Of a stretch of 14,882 bases of DNA, positions 1,504 to 14,882 are shown piece by piece. The DNA lies in the IMG/VR virus record IMGVR_UViG_2861069343_000006; one strand, written 5' to 3'. Made by a program: the position numbers and the translations under genes. This DNA comes from a virus (Duplodnaviria; Heunggongvirae; Uroviricota; Caudoviricetes). The notes below the pieces were generated by a model, which saw nothing but the letters and a program-made list of their open reading frames with translations, did no database searches and was not told the origin of the DNA. The stretch's first letter is position 1. Every line of letters starts with the position of its first letter.

Positions 1504-1530
1504 GCAATATTAAACACATGTAGTGATTAC

Positions 1531-1692
1531 ATGTTCTTGAGGATCGCATCACCAAATTCTGAACATTTCAGCAGTTTAGCGCCTTCCATCAGACGTTCGA
1601 AGTCATAGGTTACGGTCTTGGCATTGATTGCGCCTTCCATACCTTTAACAATCAGGTCTGCGGCTTCGGTCCAACCCATGTGGCGTAACAGT
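1531..1692 (-). pseudogene. icd: Isocitrate dehydrogenase 3'-terminal fragment (icdC-like), a relic of prophage integration into icd
   Basis: Minus-strand translation [53 protein letters not shown] matches the C-terminus of E. coli Icd. Similarity stops abruptly near 1692, with AT-rich non-coding DNA beyond. The e14 family is known to integrate into the icd 3' end and leave such a fragment. Confidence 0.8.
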
Positions 1693-2390
1693 ATATAAAA
1701 ACATTAAGTTCAAGTCATTGATATTTAATGATAAAAATTATTTTATTGTTTTTTTATTAGCCAAAATCAACTTTATTCAACCGTTTGATTTCATTGACGT
1801 TCGTTTTTATTTTGGGGAAAGGTTTTCTCTACCATTTATATCCAAATTACAAGTCTACATTTTATTAACATCTCAATACATGTGAGGCCTTGCAGACCTT
1901 TGTGAGACCTTATGTGTCTCTGTTTTGTCCCAACTTATGTTAAGAGGCACATAATTAAAAATAAGATAACGATGCCGCCAAGCAGTGCAAAACCTTGTTT
2001 ACTCCACGACTGTCTGCCCCATTATCTGCATACATAATTATCTTCCATAACTGAGATAAATGTCGGTTATGAGCGAACAACAGACGTTTAGTTTATGATG
2101 GCTGTGTCTATACATTAAACATAACATCCATTACCGGCACCGCTTATTAATTGCTATCTGATATTGTCACTAAAAAATAGGCATTCCCCGATATAATAAT
2201 CACAAAGAAGCTTTTGGTGCTGGCAATCGGTATACCTAATAGTGGACTGCGACTTTCCGGACTCGACAAGGATATATCAATGTATGAGCAGGAAAATTAG
2301 ACCGTGGTGCGTCATATGATGACTAAGCACGGATAACAGCTACTTAATTGAAACTATTGATTATATTACAGCCAGTGCCTTATAGGATGG

Positions 2391-6505: not shown

Positions 6506-7009
6506 TTACTGATAGTGTTTTATGTTCAGATAATGCCCGATGACCTTGTCATGCAGCTCCACCGATTTTGAGAACGACAGTGACTTCCGTCCCAGCCTTG
6601 CCAGATGTTGTCTCAGATTCAGGTTATGTCGCTCAATGCGCTGAGTGTAACGCTTGCTGATAACGTGCAGCTTTCCCTTCAGGCGGGATTCATACAGCGG
6701 CCAGCCATCCGTCATCCATACCACGACCTCAAAGGCCGACAGCAGGCTCAGAAGACACTCCAGTGTGGCCAGAGTGCGTTCACCGAAGACGTGCGCCACA
6801 ACCGTCCTCCGTATCCTGTCATACGCGTAAAACAGCCAGCGCTGACGTGATTTAGCACCGACGTAGCCCCACTGTTCGTCCATTTCAGCGCAGACAATCA
6901 CATCACTGCCCGGTTGTATGCGCGAGGTTACCGACTGCGGCCTGAGTTTTTTAAGTGACGTAAAACCGTGTTGAGGCCAACGCCCATAATGCGTGCACTG
7001 GCGCGACAT
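6506..7009 (-). CDS. insB: IS1 transposase InsB
   Basis: 167-aa translation ([58 protein letters not shown]...) matches IS1 InsB nearly residue for residue. Confidence 0.9.
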
Positions 7010-7203
7010 CCGACGCCATTCATGGCCATATCAATGATTTTCTGGTGCGTACCGGGCTGAGAGGCGGTGTAAGTGAACTGTAGTTGCCATGTTTTACGGC
7101 AATGAGAGCAGAGATAGCGCTGATGCCCGGCAGTGCTTTTGCCGTTACGCACCACGCCTTCAGTAGCGGAGCAGGAAGGACATCTGATGGAAATGGAAGC
7201 CAC
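6928..7203 (-). CDS. insA: IS1 protein InsA
   Basis: 91-aa translation [58 protein letters not shown]... matches IS1 InsA. Confidence 0.9.
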
Positions 7204-7253
7204 GCAAGCACCTTAAAATCACCATCATACACTAAATCAGTAAGTTGGCAGCA

Positions 7254-7742
7254 TTACCTTGTTAGTTTGTCTTTTGTGTTTACCTGATTCGGGTAAACGC
7301 CTTTACCTGATTTAGGTAAACTTTTCTTACCTGATTCAGGTAAATTTACCTCTTTCAGGTAAACTTTATTTTTCTTACCCGATTCGGGTAATGTTGACCA
7401 TTCACTGACCACATTATTGATGCCGATATTCCGCCCGCTCTGAATAAAAATCCCACGCTTTACCAGAACACTTTTTGCAGCAGAACACTTGTGCGGCAAT
7501 ATCCCGGTTAATTCGGAAAGTTGCTCGTTGCTAACCCAATCCAGTTTTTTATTAAAGCCATATGTTTTGCGCATGACAGCCAGAAAGACCAGAAGCTGGT
7601 GCTGTGTTAATCCGGCCAGCATCACAGCTTCCAGCAACTCATTTGCAATGCGCGTATAACCATCATCGAGATCTGCCACGCGCCGCTCCTTTTGTGCCAC
7701 ATCCGGCACAGGAAAATTGAATATCTCAGCAGTGTTTGCCAT
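7254..7742 (-). pseudogene. O: Lambda O-like replication initiator, N-terminal portion only, truncated by IS1
   Basis: From ATG at 7742 (SD GGGAGGA upstream): MANTAEIFNFPVPDVAQKERRVADLDDGYTRIANELLEA...LLVFLAVMRKTYGFNKKLDWVSNEQLSELTGIL parallels the lambda O N-terminal domain. The frame runs through the iteron array and ends with a stop inside the IS1 terminal repeat. The C-terminal P-interacting domain is absent. Confidence 0.75.
7280..7391. repeat. Five ~18-bp dyad-symmetric iterons (consensus TTACCTGATTCAGGTAAA), an ori-like array inside the O-like gene
   Basis: Copies at 7280-7297, 7303-7320, 7327-7344, 7346-7363 and 7374-7391, each TTACC-N7/8-GGTAA, spaced about 19-24 bp apart within the O-like reading frame. 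This mirrors lambda-type origins, which lie inside O. The flanking AT-rich portion is cut off by IS1. Confidence 0.6.
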
Positions 7743-7828
7743 AATTCCTCCCGCAATGAGTGTGTTACGATTTGCACCTGAAAGTCGGTTCTGTTCCCGC
7801 AGACCGACTTTCGCCATTTCTGAACCTG

Positions 7829-8368
7829 TCATATTGCCCCCAGCATGGTGGTGACCATCGCCATCAATGGACCAGCCAGATCCGGGTCCACTCGAAACAT
7901 CGACACAATGCCTTCACTCATCTCCTTCAGTTTCTGGTGGCGTGGTGCGTTGAGAATGACCGCCTGCTTTGCCTCACAGAGTTCCTTTTCCATTTCAGCC
8001 AGCCGAGCCATGAAGCTATCCTGCTCAACCAGGTGGCCGCGATATTCCAGCGGTAGTACCGCCAGAATTGCCGGGGTCAGTTCACGCACGTTATTTCGGT
8101 ATTTTTCAGAATCGAATTTGTTATCGAGGAAGCGGAACAGCTTCTGGCGTGCACGGCTGACATCATCAGGGAAATCGATAGTGCCGCCGCCCTGCTCCCG
8201 ATACTCATTCACAATGAGTGTGGCAACGACATCCTGATTATCTTCAGCCGACCAGGCGCGGACGGCATCACGGATTTTTTCGTGGCCTGGCACCTGTTTT
8301 GTTTGAGAACGATTTATCACCGCAGTCGGGCTAAATCCGCTAGTCTGTTGGTATGTAAGTAGTTGCAT
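7829..8368 (-). CDS. YdaT-like prophage protein (Rac ydaT family), 179 aa
   Basis: ATG at 8368 preceded by AAGGAG. Segments NEYREQGGG...RQKLFRFL...LTPAILAVLPLEYRGHL resemble my recollection of Rac YdaT. It sits immediately upstream of the O-like gene, as ydaT precedes ydaU in Rac. Confidence 0.5.
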   Translation of the reverse strand: MQLLTYQQTSGFSPTAVINRSQTKQVPGHEKIRDAVRAWSAEDNQDVVATLIVNEYREQGGGTIDFPDDVSRARQKLFRFLDNKFDSEKYRNNVRELTPAILAVLPLEYRGHLVEQDSFMARLAEMEKELCEAKQAVILNAPRHQKLKEMSEGIVSMFRVDPDLAGPLMAMVTTMLGAI

Positions 8369-8579
8369 AATTGACTCCTTTAGTTTGAATTGACTGTTAA
8401 GTTGATTGCTTATTGTTAAAGAGCGTGAAATGGAAATTTAAGCTGCGTTCTTTTCGGTGTGTGGAAACAACTTCGGAAGATCCGGGCGAATCTGGTATGC
8501 CTTCACTACTCCACCAGTAGCCGTAACAATGCTGCCGACATGTTCAGGGGATACCTTTGCTTTGTTGTGAAGCCACTTA

Positions 8580-8862
8580 TATCTATGACAAGGATGAAGC
8601 CGAGCGCATTGTCGAAAATACCGCATACACTGCAGAACGTCAGCCGGAACGCGACATCACTCCGGTTAACGATGAAACCATGCAGGAGATTAACACTCTG
8701 CTGATTGCCCTGGATAAAACATGGGATGACGACTTATTGCCGCTCTGTTCCCAGATATTTCGCCGCGACATTCGCGCATCGTCAGAACTGACACAGGCCG
8801 AAGCAGTGAAAGCTCTTGGATTCCTGAAACAGAAAGCCTCTGAGCAGAAGGTGGCTGCATGA
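8580..8862 (+). pseudogene. bet: Lambda Bet (Red-beta) 3' fragment, C-terminal ~93 codons only
   Basis: [93 protein letters not shown] matches the C-terminus of lambda Bet. Similarity starts abruptly near 8580, and upstream sequence is unrelated in this frame. The stop overlaps the exo start as in lambda. Confidence 0.85.
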
Positions 8863-9539
8863 CACCGGACATTATCCTGCAGCGTACCGGGATCGACGTG
8901 AGAGCTGTCGAACAGGGAGATGATGCGTGGAACAAATTACGACTCGGCGTCATCACGGCTTCAGAAGTTCACAATGTGATAGCAAAACCCCGCTCCGGTA
9001 AAAAGTGGCCTGACATGAAAATGTCCTACTTTCACACCCTGCTGGCTGAGATTTGCACCGGTGTGGCTCCGGAAGTTAACGCTAAGGCGCTGGCCTGGGG
9101 AAAACAGTACGAGAATGACGCCAGAGCCCTGTTTGAGTTTACTTCCGGCGTGAATGTTACTGAATCCCCGATCATCTATCGCGACGAAAGTATGCGCACC
9201 GCCTGCTCTCCCGATGGTTTATGCAGTGACGGCAACGGCCTTGAGCTGAAATGCCCGTTTACCTCCCGGGATTTCATGAAGTTCCGGCTCGGTGGTTTCG
9301 AGGCCATAAAGTCGGCTTACATGGCCCAGGTGCAGTACAGCATGTGGGTGACACGAAAAGATGCCTGGTACTTTGCCAACTATGACCCGCGTATGAAGCG
9401 TGAAGGACTGCATTATGTCGTGGTTGAGCGGGATGAAAAGTACATGGCGAGTTTTGACGAGATGGTGCCGGAGTTCATCGAAAAAATGGACGAGGCACTG
9501 GCTGAAATTGGTTTTGTATTTGGGGAGCAATGGCGATGA
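8859..9539 (+). CDS. exo: Lambda-type exonuclease (Red-alpha), intact 226 aa
   Basis: [64 protein letters not shown]...GFVFGEQWR is essentially the bacteriophage lambda Exo sequence over its full length. Confidence 0.95.
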
Positions 9540-9601
9540 CGCATCCTCACGATAATATCCGGGTAGGCGCGATCACTTTCGTCTACTCCATTACAAAGCG
9601 A

Positions 9602-9628
9602 GGCTGGGTATTTCCCGGCCTTTCTGTT
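9602..9628 (+). terminator. tL3-like rho-independent terminator downstream of exo
   Basis: GGCTGGG-tattt-CCCGGCC hairpin followed by TTTCTGTT. The surrounding ~140 bp after exo matches the lambda sequence downstream of exo as I remember it from Red-recombineering constructs. Confidence 0.5.
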
Positions 9629-9690
9629 ATCAGAAATCCACTGAAAGCACAGCGGCTGGCTGAGAAGATAAATAATAAACAGGAGGATAT

Positions 9691-10755
9691 ATGAGTCAGG
9701 TTGGTAATCATTCATTCGAATTTCCGGCATCGCAAGGTGTACAGGGTGGTACTGTTACACTCTTCCTTACCATACCAGGAAGATCGCTGGCTCGTTTCCT
9801 CGCTTCAGATAATTACGGCCATACACTGGAACGCTCTCAGCGAGAAATTAATCCAAATCGAGTACGAAAATTTTTAAATTATCTCACTAACGCAGACTCA
9901 AGAAATGAGTCTTTTATCATTCCCCCTCTCGTAGGTAACTGTGATTCGAATATAGAATTTGTACCGTTTGGCAACACAAATGTTGGTATAGCCAGAATTC
10001 CCCTCGACGCCGAAATAAAACTTTTTGATGGCCAACATCGTGCAGCTGGCATTGAGATATTTTGCCGAAGTTCCCCATCAACGCTCATGGTTCCCATGAT
10101 GCTTACAATGAATCTGCCGCTAAAAACCCGGCAGCAGTTCTTTTCGGACATAAATAACAACGTTTCTAAGCCATCAGCGACCATCAATATGGCGTATAAC
10201 GGCCGGGATGATATTGCTCAGGGAATGATATCCTTCCTGACCCAACATACTGTATTTGCCGATATAACCGATTTTGAACACAACGTAGTGCCATTAAAAA
10301 GTAATATGTGGGTGAGTTTCAAGGCACTCACTGATGCAACGTCAAAGTTTGCTAGGAACGGCAATCAACAACTTGAAATGGGATATATAGAATCTGTCTG
10401 GGAGGCATGGATTACACTAACTCAGATTGACTCAATCCGACATGGTGTACACCACGCTACGTACAAGCGCGATTATATTCAGTTCCATGGAGTAATGATT
10501 AACGCTTTCGGTTTTGCGGTTCAACAGATGATGGTTAATCATTCCATCGCAGAAATAACTTCTATGATCGAAAAACTCTGTGCAACTACCAGCTCTGCAG
10601 AAAGAGAGGATTTTTTTCTGATGGATAACTGGGCGGGGATCTGCACGAAAGCCAGCCAGGAAAAACTATCGGTTATTGCCAATGTGGCAGCGCAGAAAGC
10701 AGCAGCAAACAGACTGATACAAGCTTTTACCAAAGGAAGTCTGGAAACAACTTAA
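9691..10755 (+). CDS. DGQHR-motif protein (DndB-like, ParB/sulfiredoxin-fold superfamily), 354 aa, no partner genes
   Basis: ATG preceded by a strong SD (AGGAGG). Contains the literal motif KLFDGQHRAAGIE that defines the DGQHR/DndB-like family. No dndCDE, dpd or ssp partner genes are present in the window. Flanked by terminators on both sides. Confidence 0.75.
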   Translation: MSQVGNHSFEFPASQGVQGGTVTLFLTIPGRSLARFLASDNYGHTLERSQREINPNRVRKFLNYLTNADSRNESFIIPPLVGNCDSNIEFVPFGNTNVGIARIPLDAEIKLFDGQHRAAGIEIFCRSSPSTLMVPMMLTMNLPLKTRQQFFSDINNNVSKPSATINMAYNGRDDIAQGMISFLTQHTVFADITDFEHNVVPLKSNMWVSFKALTDATSKFARNGNQQLEMGYIESVWEAWITLTQIDSIRHGVHHATYKRDYIQFHGVMINAFGFAVQQMMVNHSIAEITSMIEKLCATTSSAEREDFFLMDNWAGICTKASQEKLSVIANVAAQKAAANRLIQAFTKGSLETT

Positions 10756-10832
10756 TGAATCAACATTGTCTCATATCAGCATGCTGTACGGCGTCTTTAA
10801 GGAACGGTGAGCATGAAAAACAAAATCATCAT

Positions 10833-10856
10833 GGAGCTACAGGCTCCTTTTTTATT
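10833..10856 (+). terminator. Rho-independent terminator downstream of the DGQHR gene
   Basis: GGAGC-tacag-GCTCC hairpin followed directly by TTTTTTATT. Confidence 0.5.
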
Positions 10857-10908
10857 ATTCGCATTCACCCTCAAGCGTATTAACCAACAATTCAGGGATT
10901 AATGAAAG

Positions 10909-11127
10909 ATGGCAGACATCATTGATTCAGCATCAGAAATTGAAGAATTACAGCGCAACACAGCAATAAAAATGCGCCGCCTGAACCACCAGGCTATATC
11001 TGCCACTCATTGTTGTGAGTGTGGCGATCCGCTAGATGAACGAAGACGCCTGGCCGTTCAGGGTTGTCGGACTTGTGCAAGTTGCCAGGAGGAGATCGAA
11101 CTTAAGAACAAACAATGGGGACTGTGA
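10909..11127 (+). CDS. TraR/DksA-family C4 zinc-finger protein, 72 aa (phage TraR-like RNA polymerase-binding regulator)
   Basis: CCECGDPLDERRRLAVQGCRTCASCQ fits the TraR/DksA C4 zinc-finger signature (CxxCGxxI/L...RR...CxxCQ). Size and location in the exo-xis region are typical of phage TraR homologues. Confidence 0.6.
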   Translation: MADIIDSASEIEELQRNTAIKMRRLNHQAISATHCCECGDPLDERRRLAVQGCRTCASCQEEIELKNKQWGL

Positions 11128-11174
11128 TGGCCTCAAAGCAGCAAATTTCAACATCGTCCAACTGAGGTGTAAAA

Positions 11175-11414
11175 ATGTTCAGAATCATTTTTCCTAACAC
11201 CTGGTACGTCGACCACCACGGCACTCCCTGCAAAATCCTGCGTTCTACCCACAACAAAGTTCACTACATCCGAAAAGGCAGAACATGTATCGCCAGCATG
11301 TTCCGCTTTAATCATGACTTTGAACCTGTGAATAAAGCTGATGCAGATCGGATAGCAGAAGAGATCGAAACGGCAGAACACATTAAGAAGTTACGTGCCA
11401 TACGCAGGAAATAG
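11175..11414 (+). CDS. Small hypothetical phage protein, 79 aa
   Basis: ATG preceded by a GAGGTG SD 6 nt upstream, co-directional with the neighbouring phage genes. No motif recognised. Confidence 0.35.
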   Translation: MFRIIFPNTWYVDHHGTPCKILRSTHNKVHYIRKGRTCIASMFRFNHDFEPVNKADADRIAEEIETAEHIKKLRAIRRK

Positions 11415-11553
11415 AAAAATTGATAAATTCAATACTGCATTTCTCAGCATTAAATTTATCTCTATGACCAGTCAAGAGATGTACCTGCCATGAGCTTAAT
11501 ATCATGTCAGATATATCGGTCACAAACTCCCTCAGCAGCTAAGAGGAGGACAA

Positions 11554-13781
<2,228 letters not shown>

Positions 13782-14882
13782 TTATATTGCAAATTAGATA
13801 AGCGAACCGGAAAGGTATATTGGCAATACAAACATCCACTATCCGGTCGTTTTCATAGCTTAGGAACTGATGAGAATGAAGCAAAACAAGTTGCTACTGA
13901 AGCAAATACCATTATTGCTGAACAACGTACCAGACAAATATTAAGCGTCAATGAGCGTCTGGAAAGAATGAAAGGCAGGCGCTCAGACATTACGGTGACA
14001 GAATGGCTTGATAAATATATTTCTATCCAGGAGGACAGGCTGCAACATAATGAACTAAGACCCAACTCCTATCGGCAAAAAGGCAAACCCATTCGTCTTT
14101 TCCGTGAGCATTGTGGAATGCAACACCTCAAGGATATTACCGCACTTGATATTGCCGAAATAATTGATGCTGTAAAGGCTGAAGGTCATAACAGGATGGC
14201 GCAAGTCGTGAGAATGGTGTTGATCGACGTCTTCAAAGAAGCACAACACGCAGGACATGTTCCGCCAGGATTTAACCCAGCGCAGGCAACAAAACAACCG
14301 CGAAATCGAGTAAACCGCCAAAGATTGTCACTGCCCGAATGGCAGGCAATATTTGAAAGCGTAAGCAGACGGCAGCCCTATTTAAAATGCGGCATGCTAC
14401 TTGCTCTTGTTACTGGACAACGTTTAGGCGATATCTGCAATTTGAAATTCTCTGATATATGGGACGACATGTTGCACATTACTCAGGAAAAAACCGGTTC
14501 AAAACTTGCTATTCCGCTTAACCTGAAATGCGATGCTCTGAATATTACCCTTCGTGAAGTTATATCTCAGTGCAGGGATGCTGTTGTTAGTAAATATCTG
14601 GTCCATTACCGTCACACTACCTCTCAAGCAAACAGAGGAGACCAGGTTTCTGCAAATACTCTGACAACGGCTTTTAAAAAGGCCAGGGAAAAATGTGGCA
14701 TAAAATGGGAGCAAGGAACTGCGCCCACATTTCATGAGCAGCGATCTCTGTCAGAACGGTTATATCGGGAACAGGGTCTGGATACGCAAAAGTTGTTAGG
14801 CCATAAATCCAGAAAAATGACCGACCGATACAATGATGATCGTGGTAAAGACTGGGTTATCGTAGATATCAAAACAGCATAG
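13782..14882 (+). pseudogene. int: Lambda-family tyrosine integrase, 3' portion (C-terminal ~366 codons), disrupted by IS100
   Basis: LALVTGQRLGDICNLKFSDI, KTGSKLAIP, HEQRSLSERLY and LLGHKSRKMTDRYNDDRGKDWV parallel lambda Int, including the catalytic region. The reading frame is joined to the 11780-11827 fragment only if IS100 is removed. The six-frame ORF start at 13731 lies inside the IS100 right end. Confidence 0.8.

What the first reader, a model, noticed from the sequence alone, without database searches (positions are those of the whole stretch)
9540..10860. Orphan DGQHR (DndB-like) protein as a terminator-bracketed cassette in the exo-xis accessory slot
A 354-aa protein carrying the literal DGQHR motif sits as a self-contained unit: its own strong SD, a tL3-like terminator upstream and its own hairpin terminator downstream. 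Similarity to lambda ends near 9680, about 10 bp before its start codon. DGQHR proteins normally act inside multi-gene DNA-modification systems (dnd phosphorothioation, dpd 7-deazaguanine), but no partner genes are present here. The exo-xis interval of lambdoid phages is a known accessory-gene hotspot. A stand-alone DndB-like protein there is a plausible single-gene defence, anti-defence or DNA-modification sensor that I cannot match to a named system. The cassette is retained in an otherwise gutted prophage.
Basis: partly seen in the sequence, partly recalled or inferred. Interest (0 to 1): 0.7.

Follow-up and report, generated by a model that had tools for sequence, protein, structure and literature searches.

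The report
Partner-less DndB-like gene in prophage remnant
An intact gene for a DndB-like (DGQHR, ParB-fold) protein of unknown function sits in the early operon of a decayed lambda-like prophage; it is not a self-contained cassette, and its relatives travel alone in phages and in the first-entering region of conjugative plasmids, which points to a role in helping mobile DNA get established.

Summary

The "terminator-bracketed cassette" reading is wrong. Both hairpins are lambda backbone sequence. The upstream hairpin lies inside the DUF1317 (orf60a) ORF, whose stop overlaps the DGQHR start (ATGA). The 1.09-kb module replaces lambda orf63 and orf61 in the pL operon. In this remnant pL, N and cI are deleted, and no promoter above chance lies upstream.

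The family is phrog_7901, function unknown. The gene occurs in 284 of 5426 complete E. coli genomes. Relatives at 55-73% identity sit in early-left operons of temperate phages across Enterobacterales. Relatives at about 40% identity sit in conjugative-element leading regions, beside ArdA, PsiA, antirestriction and ssb genes, including pOXA-48.

No dndCDE or dptFGH gene was found near any surveyed homologue. A DNA methyltransferase follows within four genes in 7 of 20 phage lineages, though not in this one.

Best reading: an early-expressed establishment or counter-defence factor acting on DNA. This copy is probably silent.

The parts
8581..8862 (+). Truncated bet (3' end only). The deletion junction at 8581 removed pL, N, cIII, kil, gam and cI.
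   Evidence: RefSeq annotation of the identical record. The lambda alignment starts at 8580.
8859..9539 (+). exo (lambda exonuclease), the first intact gene of the surviving operon fragment.
   Evidence: 96% identity to lambda.
9530..9694 (+). DUF1317 protein, homologue of lambda orf60a. Its stop codon TGA (9692-9694) overlaps the DGQHR start codon.
   Evidence: Pfam PF07026, E 4e-31. phrog_1998. ORF list. Sequence.
9600..9622 (+). GC-rich hairpin in the lambda tL3 region, inside the DUF1317 ORF. This is lambda backbone, not part of the module.
   Evidence: Fold energy -18.5 kcal/mol, z -3.5. Identical in lambda.
9682..10774 (+). Non-lambda module (about 1.09 kb). It comprises the Shine-Dalgarno sequence, the DGQHR ORF and 19 nt. 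It replaces lambda 30748-31193 (orf63, orf61 and 91 nt). GC is 41-44%, against 52-55% in exo.
9681..9686 (+). AGGAGG Shine-Dalgarno sequence, 4 nt upstream of the ATG. Lambda has GAGGGG at the same place, before orf63.
9691..10755 (+). DGQHR/DndB-like protein, 354 aa (WP_001678641.1).
9691..10290 (+). N-terminal ParB/Srx-fold NTPase-like domain (residues 1 to about 200). Invariant motifs are SQRE 49-52, DGQ(H)R 113-117 and QFFSDINNNxSKP 149-161.
10027..10041 (+). Codons for D113-G-Q-H-R117.
   Evidence: D, G, Q and R are invariant, and H is 48 of 49, among 49 homologues.
10291..10752 (+). C-terminal all-helical domain (residues 201-354) with a conserved K-[RK]-D-Y-I-Q-F-H motif (259-266). It is homologous to the same region of DndB. 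A HEPN assignment is unproven.
10833..10853 (+). Weak hairpin plus T-run downstream of the gene. It is identical in lambda, so it is backbone.
   Evidence: -8.6 kcal/mol.
10909..11127 (+). TraR/DksA-type zinc-finger protein (lambda orf73-region homologue), the next gene of the operon.
11175..11414 (+). DUF4222 protein.
11554..11790 (+). Excisionase. It is followed by an IS100 insertion (istA/istB, 11914-13715) and then int (13758-14882).

Best explanation
What it is (shown):
- The gene encodes a stand-alone member of the DGQHR/DndB-like branch of the ParB/Srx NTPase superfamily (phage family phrog_7901).
- It is a 1.09-kb mosaic module that replaced orf63 and orf61 in the exo-xis stretch of the pL (early-left) operon of a lambda-like phage integrated at icd.
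- It has no promoter of its own. Its start codon overlaps the stop codon of the upstream orf60a-like gene. In an intact phage it would therefore be made early after infection or induction, together with the recombination genes. It would not be made in the lysogen.

How it most likely works (inferred):
- It is an establishment or counter-defence factor of mobile DNA.
- It is an NTP-gated, DNA-associated ParB-like protein that acts on the element's own newly entered or replicating DNA.
- My most specific guess is that it assists or tunes DNA-modifying enzymes, such as orphan methyltransferases or DndC-like enzymes. This is what its two characterised relatives do: DndB works with DndC-E, and DpdB works with DpdA. 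Failing that, it blunts host restriction in some other way.

In this window (inferred):
- The prophage has lost pL, N and cI.
- No recognisable promoter precedes the operon fragment.
- This copy is therefore most likely a silent passenger rather than a domesticated host function.
For: Identity:
- Pfam DndB, E 3e-46.
- NCBIfam DGQHR domain, 189 bits against a cut-off of 58.9.
- phrog_7901 matched over its full length, E 1e-214.
- The motifs are invariant across 49 homologues.

Operon embedding:
- ATGA overlap with DUF1317.
- The same -4 or -8 overlap occurs in 57 of the 72 related loci that have a same-strand upstream gene.
- The lambda alignment shows a gene-for-gene replacement.

Early-left context elsewhere:
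- Salmonella SPN1S, a Klebsiella phage and Vibrio phages.
- Serratia, Tatumella, Hafnia, Citrobacter, Escherichia sp. and Lelliottia prophages.

Conjugative-element context:
- pOXA-48-type IncL/M plasmids carry the gene co-oriented with ssb and an antirestriction gene. It is transcribed toward oriT.
- In Buttiauxella the order is ArdA - x - x - DGQHR - PsiA, followed further on by a relaxase.
- Salmonella plasmid pRSE21 has it next to psiA and hok.
- A Xenorhabdus ICE carries it with TopB, DUF3577 and a T4CP.
- Leading regions are documented anti-defence islands (PMC11541004).

Link to DNA-modifying enzymes:
- MT-A70, Dam or Dcm lies within 4 genes downstream in 39 of 85 loci, which is 7 of 20 lineages.
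- A Dcm lies next to the gene in a Vibrio phage.
- A DndC-like PP-loop protein lies two genes downstream on a Citrobacter plasmid.

Silent here:
- pL is deleted.
- Promoter-like hits are at or below chance.
Against: - No experiment on any member of this subfamily was found. 'DGQHR' appears in only 8 papers, and none concerns the phage or plasmid proteins.
- Two-thirds of the lineages, including this one, have no adjacent modification enzyme.
- The intact relative in E. coli C4 shows no annotated methyltransferase between the capsid genes and int.
- Methyltransferases also occupy the exo-xis slot in phages that lack the DGQHR gene, e.g. PhiR30_1. Adjacency may therefore be positional.
- The gene is dispensable in places: an internal stop in C4, an ISKpn26 insertion in S115, and IS1 disruption in the common 63.6-kb pOXA-48.
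- Guilt by association with ArdA, PsiA and ssb is not function.
- NTP binding, DNA binding and any nuclease or RNase activity are untested.
Confidence: 0.5

Rival explanations
1. Conflict weapon against competitors, or defence. On this view it is an Osa-like ParB/Srx ATPase-DNase, or a ParB-HEPN abortive-infection-type effector. It would degrade or block superinfecting phages or rival plasmids and so benefit the element, or, in the remnant, the host.
For: - ParB/Srx proteins in mobile elements include Osa, an ATPase-DNase that mediates plasmid 'sexual conflict' (cited in PMC10853773 and PMC5512222).
- The DUF262/DGQQR modules of GmrSD, SspE and BrxU are defence NTPases, and they are weak structural neighbours.
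- Makarova et al. 2013 describe DndB as ParB-like plus HEPN.
- A K/R-x(5-6)-H motif with an invariant His sits at the start of a long helix.
- The gene survives in two independently decayed prophages at icd.
Against: - There is no own promoter, and the gene is translationally coupled in a lysogeny-repressed operon.
- No recognisable nuclease domain lies beyond the ParB fold.
- The basic residue of the motif is Lys, or R/K-variable.
- PADLOC matches only the DndB model.
- The gene is a pseudogene in an intact prophage.
- The whole exo-int block is retained, not this gene alone.
Confidence: 0.2
2. Phage developmental regulator. Like DndB, it would be an ATP-modulated DNA-binding repressor. Like other exo-xis genes (orf60a, orf61, orf63, ea22), it would bias the lysis-lysogeny decision or host physiology rather than deal with host immunity.
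For: [quoted passage not shown]
- The gene replaces orf63 and orf61, which influence lysogenisation and induction (PMC3824215, PMC6213356, PMC5575149).
- It keeps the position and translational coupling of orf63.
Against: - The same family sits in plasmid and ICE leading regions, where lambda-type decisions do not exist.
- No HTH was detected by Pfam.
- No conserved operator-like repeats were looked for or seen.
Confidence: 0.12
3. Displaced component of a host dnd or dpd system encoded elsewhere in the chromosome.
For: - Pfam and PADLOC label it DndB.
- dndBCDE-dptFGH islands exist in 207 of 5426 E. coli genomes.
Against: - It fails the DndB equivalog cut-off, 108.6 against 328 bits.
- It is 23% identical to the dnd-linked E. 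coli DndB.
- Dnd islands carry their own dndB.
- Complete phage genomes and plasmids carry the gene with no dnd genes.
- None of 15 species-representative loci has DndC/D/E or DptF/G/H within 10 kb.
Confidence: 0.03

Closest known systems
DndB / DptB of the dnd phosphorothioation system (PF14072, TIGR03233)
   Same: - Homologous over about 290 residues. This covers the ParB-like N-terminal half with DGQHR and FxD(I/L)N motifs, and the helical domain with a D-Y-x-x-x-H-G motif.
- Similar length (354 vs 361 aa).
   Different: - 23% identity.
- Fails the equivalog cut-off.
- Never next to dndCDE in the surveyed loci.
- Encoded by phages and plasmids, in early-expressed operons.
DpdB of the dpd 7-deazaguanine DNA-modification system
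   Same: A DGQHR/ParB-like ATPase that serves a DNA-modifying enzyme (own knowledge of Thiaville 2016 and later work). This is the functional precedent for the 'modification helper' idea.
   Different: - No DpdA (TGT-like) or DpdC gene appears in any Pfam-annotated locus.
- No NCBIfam hit other than the DGQHR and DndB models.
DUF262 (DGQQR) NTPase modules of GmrSD, SspE and BrxU type IV restriction enzymes
   Same: - Same superfamily and the same three-motif NTPase core.
   Different: - Those carry a C-terminal HNH/DUF1524 nuclease and are host defence genes.
- This protein has a helical C-terminal domain with no nuclease signature.
Osa of IncW plasmid pSa (ParB/Srx ATPase-DNase, fertility inhibition)
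   Same: A stand-alone ParB/Srx-fold protein encoded by a mobile element and used in inter-element conflict.
   Different: - No detectable sequence relationship was tested or seen.
- Osa is much smaller, and its activity is directed at rival DNA.
ParB-fold / DNA methyltransferase fusions of phages and plasmids
   Same: - A ParB-type NTP-binding module is coupled to a DNA methyltransferase. Such fusions bind ATP (PMC12704722).
- Here the two are separate neighbouring genes in 7 of 20 phage lineages.
   Different: - Not fused.
- A different ParB subfamily (DGQHR/DndB).
- The window lineage has no methyltransferase.
Lambda orf63 and orf61 (exo-xis region genes)
   Same: Same slot, same upstream partner (orf60a/DUF1317), and a start-codon position collinear with orf63.
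   Different: - Unrelated proteins. orf63 and orf61 are about 60 aa.
- The DGQHR module is a non-homologous replacement.

Membership tests
DGQHR domain family (NCBIfam TIGR03187) | Score above the curated cut-off; DGQHR motif present. | tested here: met
   189.4 bits against a cut-off of 58.85, covering residues 13-281. D113-G-Q-H-R117.
Pfam DndB (PF14072) | Score above the gathering threshold. | tested here: met
   158.4 bits against 29.1, E 3e-46, residues 11-286.
DndB proper (NCBIfam equivalog TIGR03233) | Score above the equivalog cut-off. | tested here: not met
   108.6 bits against a cut-off of 328. 23% identity to the dnd-linked E. coli DndB.
DndB proper (NCBIfam equivalog TIGR03233) | Encoded next to dndC, dndD and dndE. 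| tested here: not met
   None in the window. None in 15 GTDB loci within +/-10 kb by BLASTP with E. coli DndC/D/E and DptF/G/H. None in the annotated phage and plasmid loci read or the Pfam-annotated contigs. A positive control shows the expected dndBCDE order.
DndB proper (NCBIfam equivalog TIGR03233) | ATP-modulated repressor of the dnd promoter. | not testable with these tools
   This needs EMSA or a reporter assay.
DpdB (dpd system) | Neighbouring dpdA (TGT-like) and dpdC. | tested here: not met
   No TGT-family Pfam hit in any Pfam-annotated locus. No DpdB model hit.
ParB/Srx superfamily | ParB/Srx alpha+beta fold with a phosphate-binding Arg motif. | tested here: met
   [not shown]
ParB/Srx superfamily | NTP binding or hydrolysis. 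| not testable with these tools
   A bacterial DndB-like protein binds ATP and GTP in DRaCALA (PMC12704722). This protein is untested.
HEPN domain (claimed for the DndB C-terminus, PMC3632139) | Four-helix HEPN fold with a conserved Rx4-6H motif. | tested here: inconclusive
   [not shown]
GmrSD / SspE / BrxU type IV restriction enzymes | DUF262 NTPase fused to an HNH/DUF1524 nuclease. | tested here: not met
   No nuclease domain. Only weak fold similarity.
PHROG phrog_7901 | Full-length profile match. | tested here: met
   E 1.2e-214, residues 1-353 on profile positions 1-353 of 355. Category 'unknown function'.
Lambdoid exo-xis accessory genes | Located between exo/orf60a and xis in the pL operon, in the same orientation. 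| tested here: met
   Intact-prophage example: E. coli C4.
Leading-region (early-entry) genes of conjugative elements | On the leading side of oriT, co-oriented with ssb, psi and ard genes. | tested here: met
   Met for homologues at about 40% identity: pOXA-48 type, Buttiauxella, pRSE21. Not applicable to the window copy itself.
Known anti-phage defence systems (PADLOC-DB v2) | Match to a defence-system protein model other than a Dnd component. | tested here: not met
   Only the PADLOC DndB model matches.

The most novel reading that the evidence does not exclude
Stand-alone DGQHR/DndB-like proteins could be an unrecognised, widespread class of early-entry counter-defence factor, shared by temperate phages (pL-type operons) and conjugative plasmids and ICEs (leading regions, including pOXA-48). 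They would be NTP-gated ParB-like proteins that work in one of two ways. They could escort orphan DNA-modifying enzymes (MT-A70, Dam, Dcm, DndC-like) onto incoming DNA. Or they could neutralise host immune systems built on the same ParB-NTPase module or on DNA modification (Dnd, Ssp, Dpd, GmrSD).
Probability: 0.3. Interest if true: 0.75.

Novelty: new variant of a known kind. Interest (0 to 1): 0.5.

Why it matters
DGQHR proteins are known only as accessory subunits of multi-gene DNA-modification systems (Dnd, Dpd). Here the same module circulates alone, in two places:
- the early operons of temperate phages across Enterobacterales and Vibrio;
- the first-transferred region of conjugative plasmids, next to classical anti-restriction and SOS-inhibition genes. 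One such plasmid is pOXA-48, a clinically dominant carbapenemase plasmid.

If the protein helps mobile DNA survive entry, it would add a new family to the anti-defence repertoire. It would also offer a handle on how ParB-fold NTPases cooperate with DNA-modifying enzymes.

For this particular window the finding is modest. The gene is already annotated, has unknown function and is probably silent.

Tried and rejected
- Sequence search of the PDB with a 49-sequence profile gave no hit at E<=1.
- Rfam scan of 8400-12000 on both strands gave no RNA family at E<=0.1.
- Promoter scans gave counts at or below the shuffled expectation, so no own promoter could be claimed.
- Literature: I searched 'DGQHR', 'DndB-like', DndB with prophage/exo-xis, with leading region/anti-defence, with HEPN, with crassostreae, and with pOXA-48. 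No study of the phage or plasmid stand-alone proteins turned up. Only open-access papers are searchable.
- Co-occurrence of the prophage gene (284 genomes) with dnd islands (207 genomes): the tool lists at most 60 rows. The expected overlap in the listed subsets is below 1, so the absence of overlap says nothing.
- The methyltransferase adjacency was considered as proof of a two-gene system and rejected as proof. It holds in 7 of 20 lineages, three unrelated MTase families alternate beside one DGQHR allele, and MTases fill the slot without DGQHR elsewhere.
- My first crude ORF picker mis-called antisense ORFs where MTase genes overlapped the DGQHR stop. This was corrected.
Full report
**Where the window comes from.** The window is 100% identical to the chromosome of E. 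coli AR437 and several ST-related clinical and sewage isolates. It covers ycgX-iraM, a lambdoid prophage remnant integrated at icd (the e14 site), and the prophage integrase. The remnant contains, on the minus strand:
- a McrBC-type pair (an AAA ATPase plus McrC);
- a decayed invertase;
- IS1;
- a truncated replication gene;
- a YdaT-domain gene;
- a cro-like fragment.

On the plus strand it contains a 3' fragment of bet, then exo, a DUF1317 gene, the DGQHR gene, a TraR/DksA zinc-finger gene, a DUF4222 gene, xis, an IS100 insertion and int. pL, N, cIII, kil, gam and cI are gone.

**The observation.** The ORF 9691-10755 (+) encodes 354 aa, with FDGQHR at residues 112-117. AGGAGG sits 4 nt before the ATG.

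BLASTN against lambda shows two matched blocks:
- window 8580-9693 matches lambda 32307-31194 at 96.3%;
- window 10775-11104 matches lambda 30747-30418 at 95.5%.

Base-level alignment shows that near-perfect identity ends at about 9681. The Shine-Dalgarno region differs, and the ATG is collinear with the orf63 ATG. The module of about 1.09 kb therefore replaces lambda orf63, orf61 and 91 nt.

The "terminator-bracketed, self-contained cassette" was not:
- The upstream hairpin (9600-9622) is base-for-base lambda sequence (the tL3 region). It lies inside the DUF1317/orf60a ORF, whose TGA overlaps the DGQHR ATG.
- The downstream hairpin (10833-10847 plus T-run, only -8.6 kcal/mol) lies inside the resumed lambda homology and is identical in lambda.
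- Both are backbone features that N-antiterminated pL transcription would read through.
- In 57 of the 72 related loci with a same-strand upstream gene, that gene overlaps the DGQHR start by 4 or 8 nt.

The gene is operon-embedded, not autonomous.

**What the protein is.**
- Pfam DndB: E 3e-46.
- NCBIfam DGQHR domain: 189 bits against a cut-off of 59.
- NCBIfam DndB equivalog: only 109 bits against a cut-off of 328.
- PADLOC matches only its DndB model.
- PHROGs places it full-length in phrog_7901, 'unknown function'.
- It is 23% identical over 292 residues to the dnd-linked DndB of E. coli NADC 6564. It is a paralogous branch, not DndB.

Invariant motifs across 49 homologues correspond to the three NTPase motifs of the DUF262/DndB superfamily:
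- SQRE at 49-52;
- DGQ(H)R at 113-117;
- QFFSDINNNxSKP at 149-161.

The C-terminal 150 residues form a confident helical domain (pLDDT 86.8). It carries a conserved K-[R/K]-D-Y-I-Q-F-H motif that aligns with DndB. Makarova et al. called this region of DndB a HEPN domain. I could not confirm that:
- the basic residue is Lys or variable;
- no HEPN profile matches.

**Distribution and context.** The gene occurs in 284 of 5426 complete E. coli genomes, always at >=99% identity. It appears in independently decayed remnants. It also appears in an apparently intact prophage at icd in strain C4, in the order gam-bet-exo-DUF1317-DGQHR-TraR-DUF4222-xis-int. There it carries an internal stop.

Homologues at 55-73% identity are spread over Salmonella, Klebsiella, Citrobacter, Enterobacter, Serratia, Cronobacter, Hafnia, Erwinia, Tatumella and others.

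In the prophage and phage contexts examined at this identity level, the gene lies in the early-left operon, downstream of the recombination genes and upstream of xis/int. I examined:
- complete phages SPN1S and ST101-KPC2phi6.3;
- chromosomal prophages;
- 80 viral-collection loci;
- GTDB species representatives.

One exception in this identity range, P0107 at 56%, lies on a relaxase-bearing, plasmid-like contig.

A profile search of 1.84 billion cluster representatives finds 823 relatives, 81 of them below 1e-30.

More distant relatives (about 40% identity) are on conjugative elements. There are 1071 plasmid records, mostly conjugative.
- In IncL/M pOXA-48-type plasmids the gene lies among a RadC/JAB gene, an HTH gene, DUF4942, Hha, DUF1380, an antirestriction gene and ssb. 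All point toward oriT, with mobA and traI on the far side. That is the leading region.
- In Buttiauxella it sits between ArdA and PsiA, upstream of a relaxase.
- In a Xenorhabdus ICE it sits among TopB, DUF3577 and a coupling protein.
- In Salmonella pRSE21 it is next to psiA and hok.

Leading regions are established anti-defence islands (PMC11541004).

**Partners.** BLASTP with E. coli DndC/D/E and DptF/G/H found none within 10 kb in 15 species-representative loci. None is annotated in the phage and plasmid records or Pfam-annotated contigs that I read. No TGT-like DpdA appears in the Pfam-annotated loci.

One recurrent neighbour is a DNA-modifying enzyme:
- MT-A70, phage Dam (PF05869) or Dcm lies within four genes downstream in 39 of 85 loci. 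That is 7 of 20 lineages at 95% identity.
- A Dcm lies next to the 539-aa Vibrio phage homologue.
- A DndC-like PP-loop protein lies two genes downstream on a Citrobacter plasmid. It is 29% identical to E. coli DndC, including the C-x-x-C. That DndC-like family is itself on 2750 plasmids.

The association is facultative. It is absent from the window lineage, three unrelated MTase families alternate beside one DGQHR allele, and MTases fill the exo-xis slot in phages without DGQHR. It could be positional.

**Mechanism.**

Shown:
- a ParB/Srx-fold DGQHR protein;
- operon-embedded, so expressed early in an intact phage;
- partner-less;
- family members located in early-entry regions of phages, plasmids and ICEs.

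Inferred:
- It acts on the element's own DNA at entry or early replication, as an NTP-gated DNA-associated factor.
- The most specific proposal is assistance or tuning of DNA-modifying enzymes, by analogy with DndB and DpdB.
- The alternative is direct interference with host restriction.
- I put about 0.5 on the umbrella of early establishment or counter-defence, and about 0.25-0.3 on the modification-helper version.

Rivals:
- an Osa-like or ParB-HEPN conflict effector or defence, 0.2;
- a DndB-like developmental regulator of the exo-xis type, 0.12;
- a displaced dnd component, 0.03.

In this window the copy lacks pL, and no promoter-like site above chance lies upstream. It is probably not expressed. 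Its retention is that of the whole int-proximal block.

**Novelty and score.** The gene is annotated ('DGQHR domain-containing protein'), and its family is catalogued, so the object itself is not new. I found no description of a partner-less, mobile-element-borne branch of the DndB family that occupies early operons and leading regions. A 2025 survey of the ParB-CTPase fold reports only that a bacterial DndB-like protein binds ATP and GTP. I rate it a new variant of a known kind, with interest 0.5. The window instance is ordinary. The family-level pattern is a testable lead for a new anti-defence or modification-helper family that includes a gene on pOXA-48.

Noticed in passing
[not shown]
   Followed up: partly
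window 11914-13715 (+) and 6506-7203 (-): IS100 (istA/istB) is inserted between xis and int. IS1 is inserted next to the truncated replication gene. Sister genomes (e.g. WCHEC020031) lack the IS100 copy.
   Followed up: partly
window 1527-1694 (-): A partial duplicate of the icd 3' end (an icd' pseudogene) marks the far attachment site of the icd-integrating element.
   Followed up: no
window 7829-8581 (-): A YdaT-domain 'toxin' gene is followed by a cro/YdaS-like fragment. The N-terminus of that fragment was removed by the same deletion that truncated bet at 8581.
   Followed up: no
L013 (NC_021488, pKPoxa-48N1) 6989-8272; 63.6-kb pOXA-48 records: IncL/M pOXA-48-family plasmids carry a 427-aa DGQHR homologue (about 42% identity) in the leading region. 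In the common 63,589-bp pOXA-48 variant it is split by IS1, so it is dispensable for the spread of that plasmid.
   Followed up: partly
L115 (NZ_OW969878) 6983-10505: On a Citrobacter plasmid a 356-aa DGQHR protein lies two genes upstream of a 669-aa DndC-like PAPS-reductase/PP-loop protein (29% identity to E. coli DndC). No dndD or dndE is present. Relatives of that DndC-like protein are on 2750 plasmid records, mostly conjugative.
   Followed up: partly
L071 and 15 other viral loci, the gene immediately downstream of DGQHR (cluster c7, 154 aa): An unannotated 154-aa protein with Cys-rich motifs (CDIC...CCPACC) and no Pfam hit sits between the DGQHR gene and the methyltransferase in 16 loci.
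   Followed up: no
L095 (NZ_CP010121, E. coli C4) 20001-21065: An apparently complete lambdoid prophage at icd carries the same DGQHR gene with an internal stop codon.
   Followed up: no
L099 (NZ_CP017251) 6608-7768: The E. coli dnd island has, besides dndB, a second DGQHR-type gene between dndE and dptH. It is annotated in two pieces (DGQHR domain protein plus 'DndB').
   Followed up: no
L003 (Klebsiella phage ST101-KPC2phi6.3) 4088-6978: The DGQHR gene is flanked upstream by a second, classical ParB-HTH protein and downstream by a dATP/dGTP pyrophosphohydrolase (DUF550-type).
   Followed up: no
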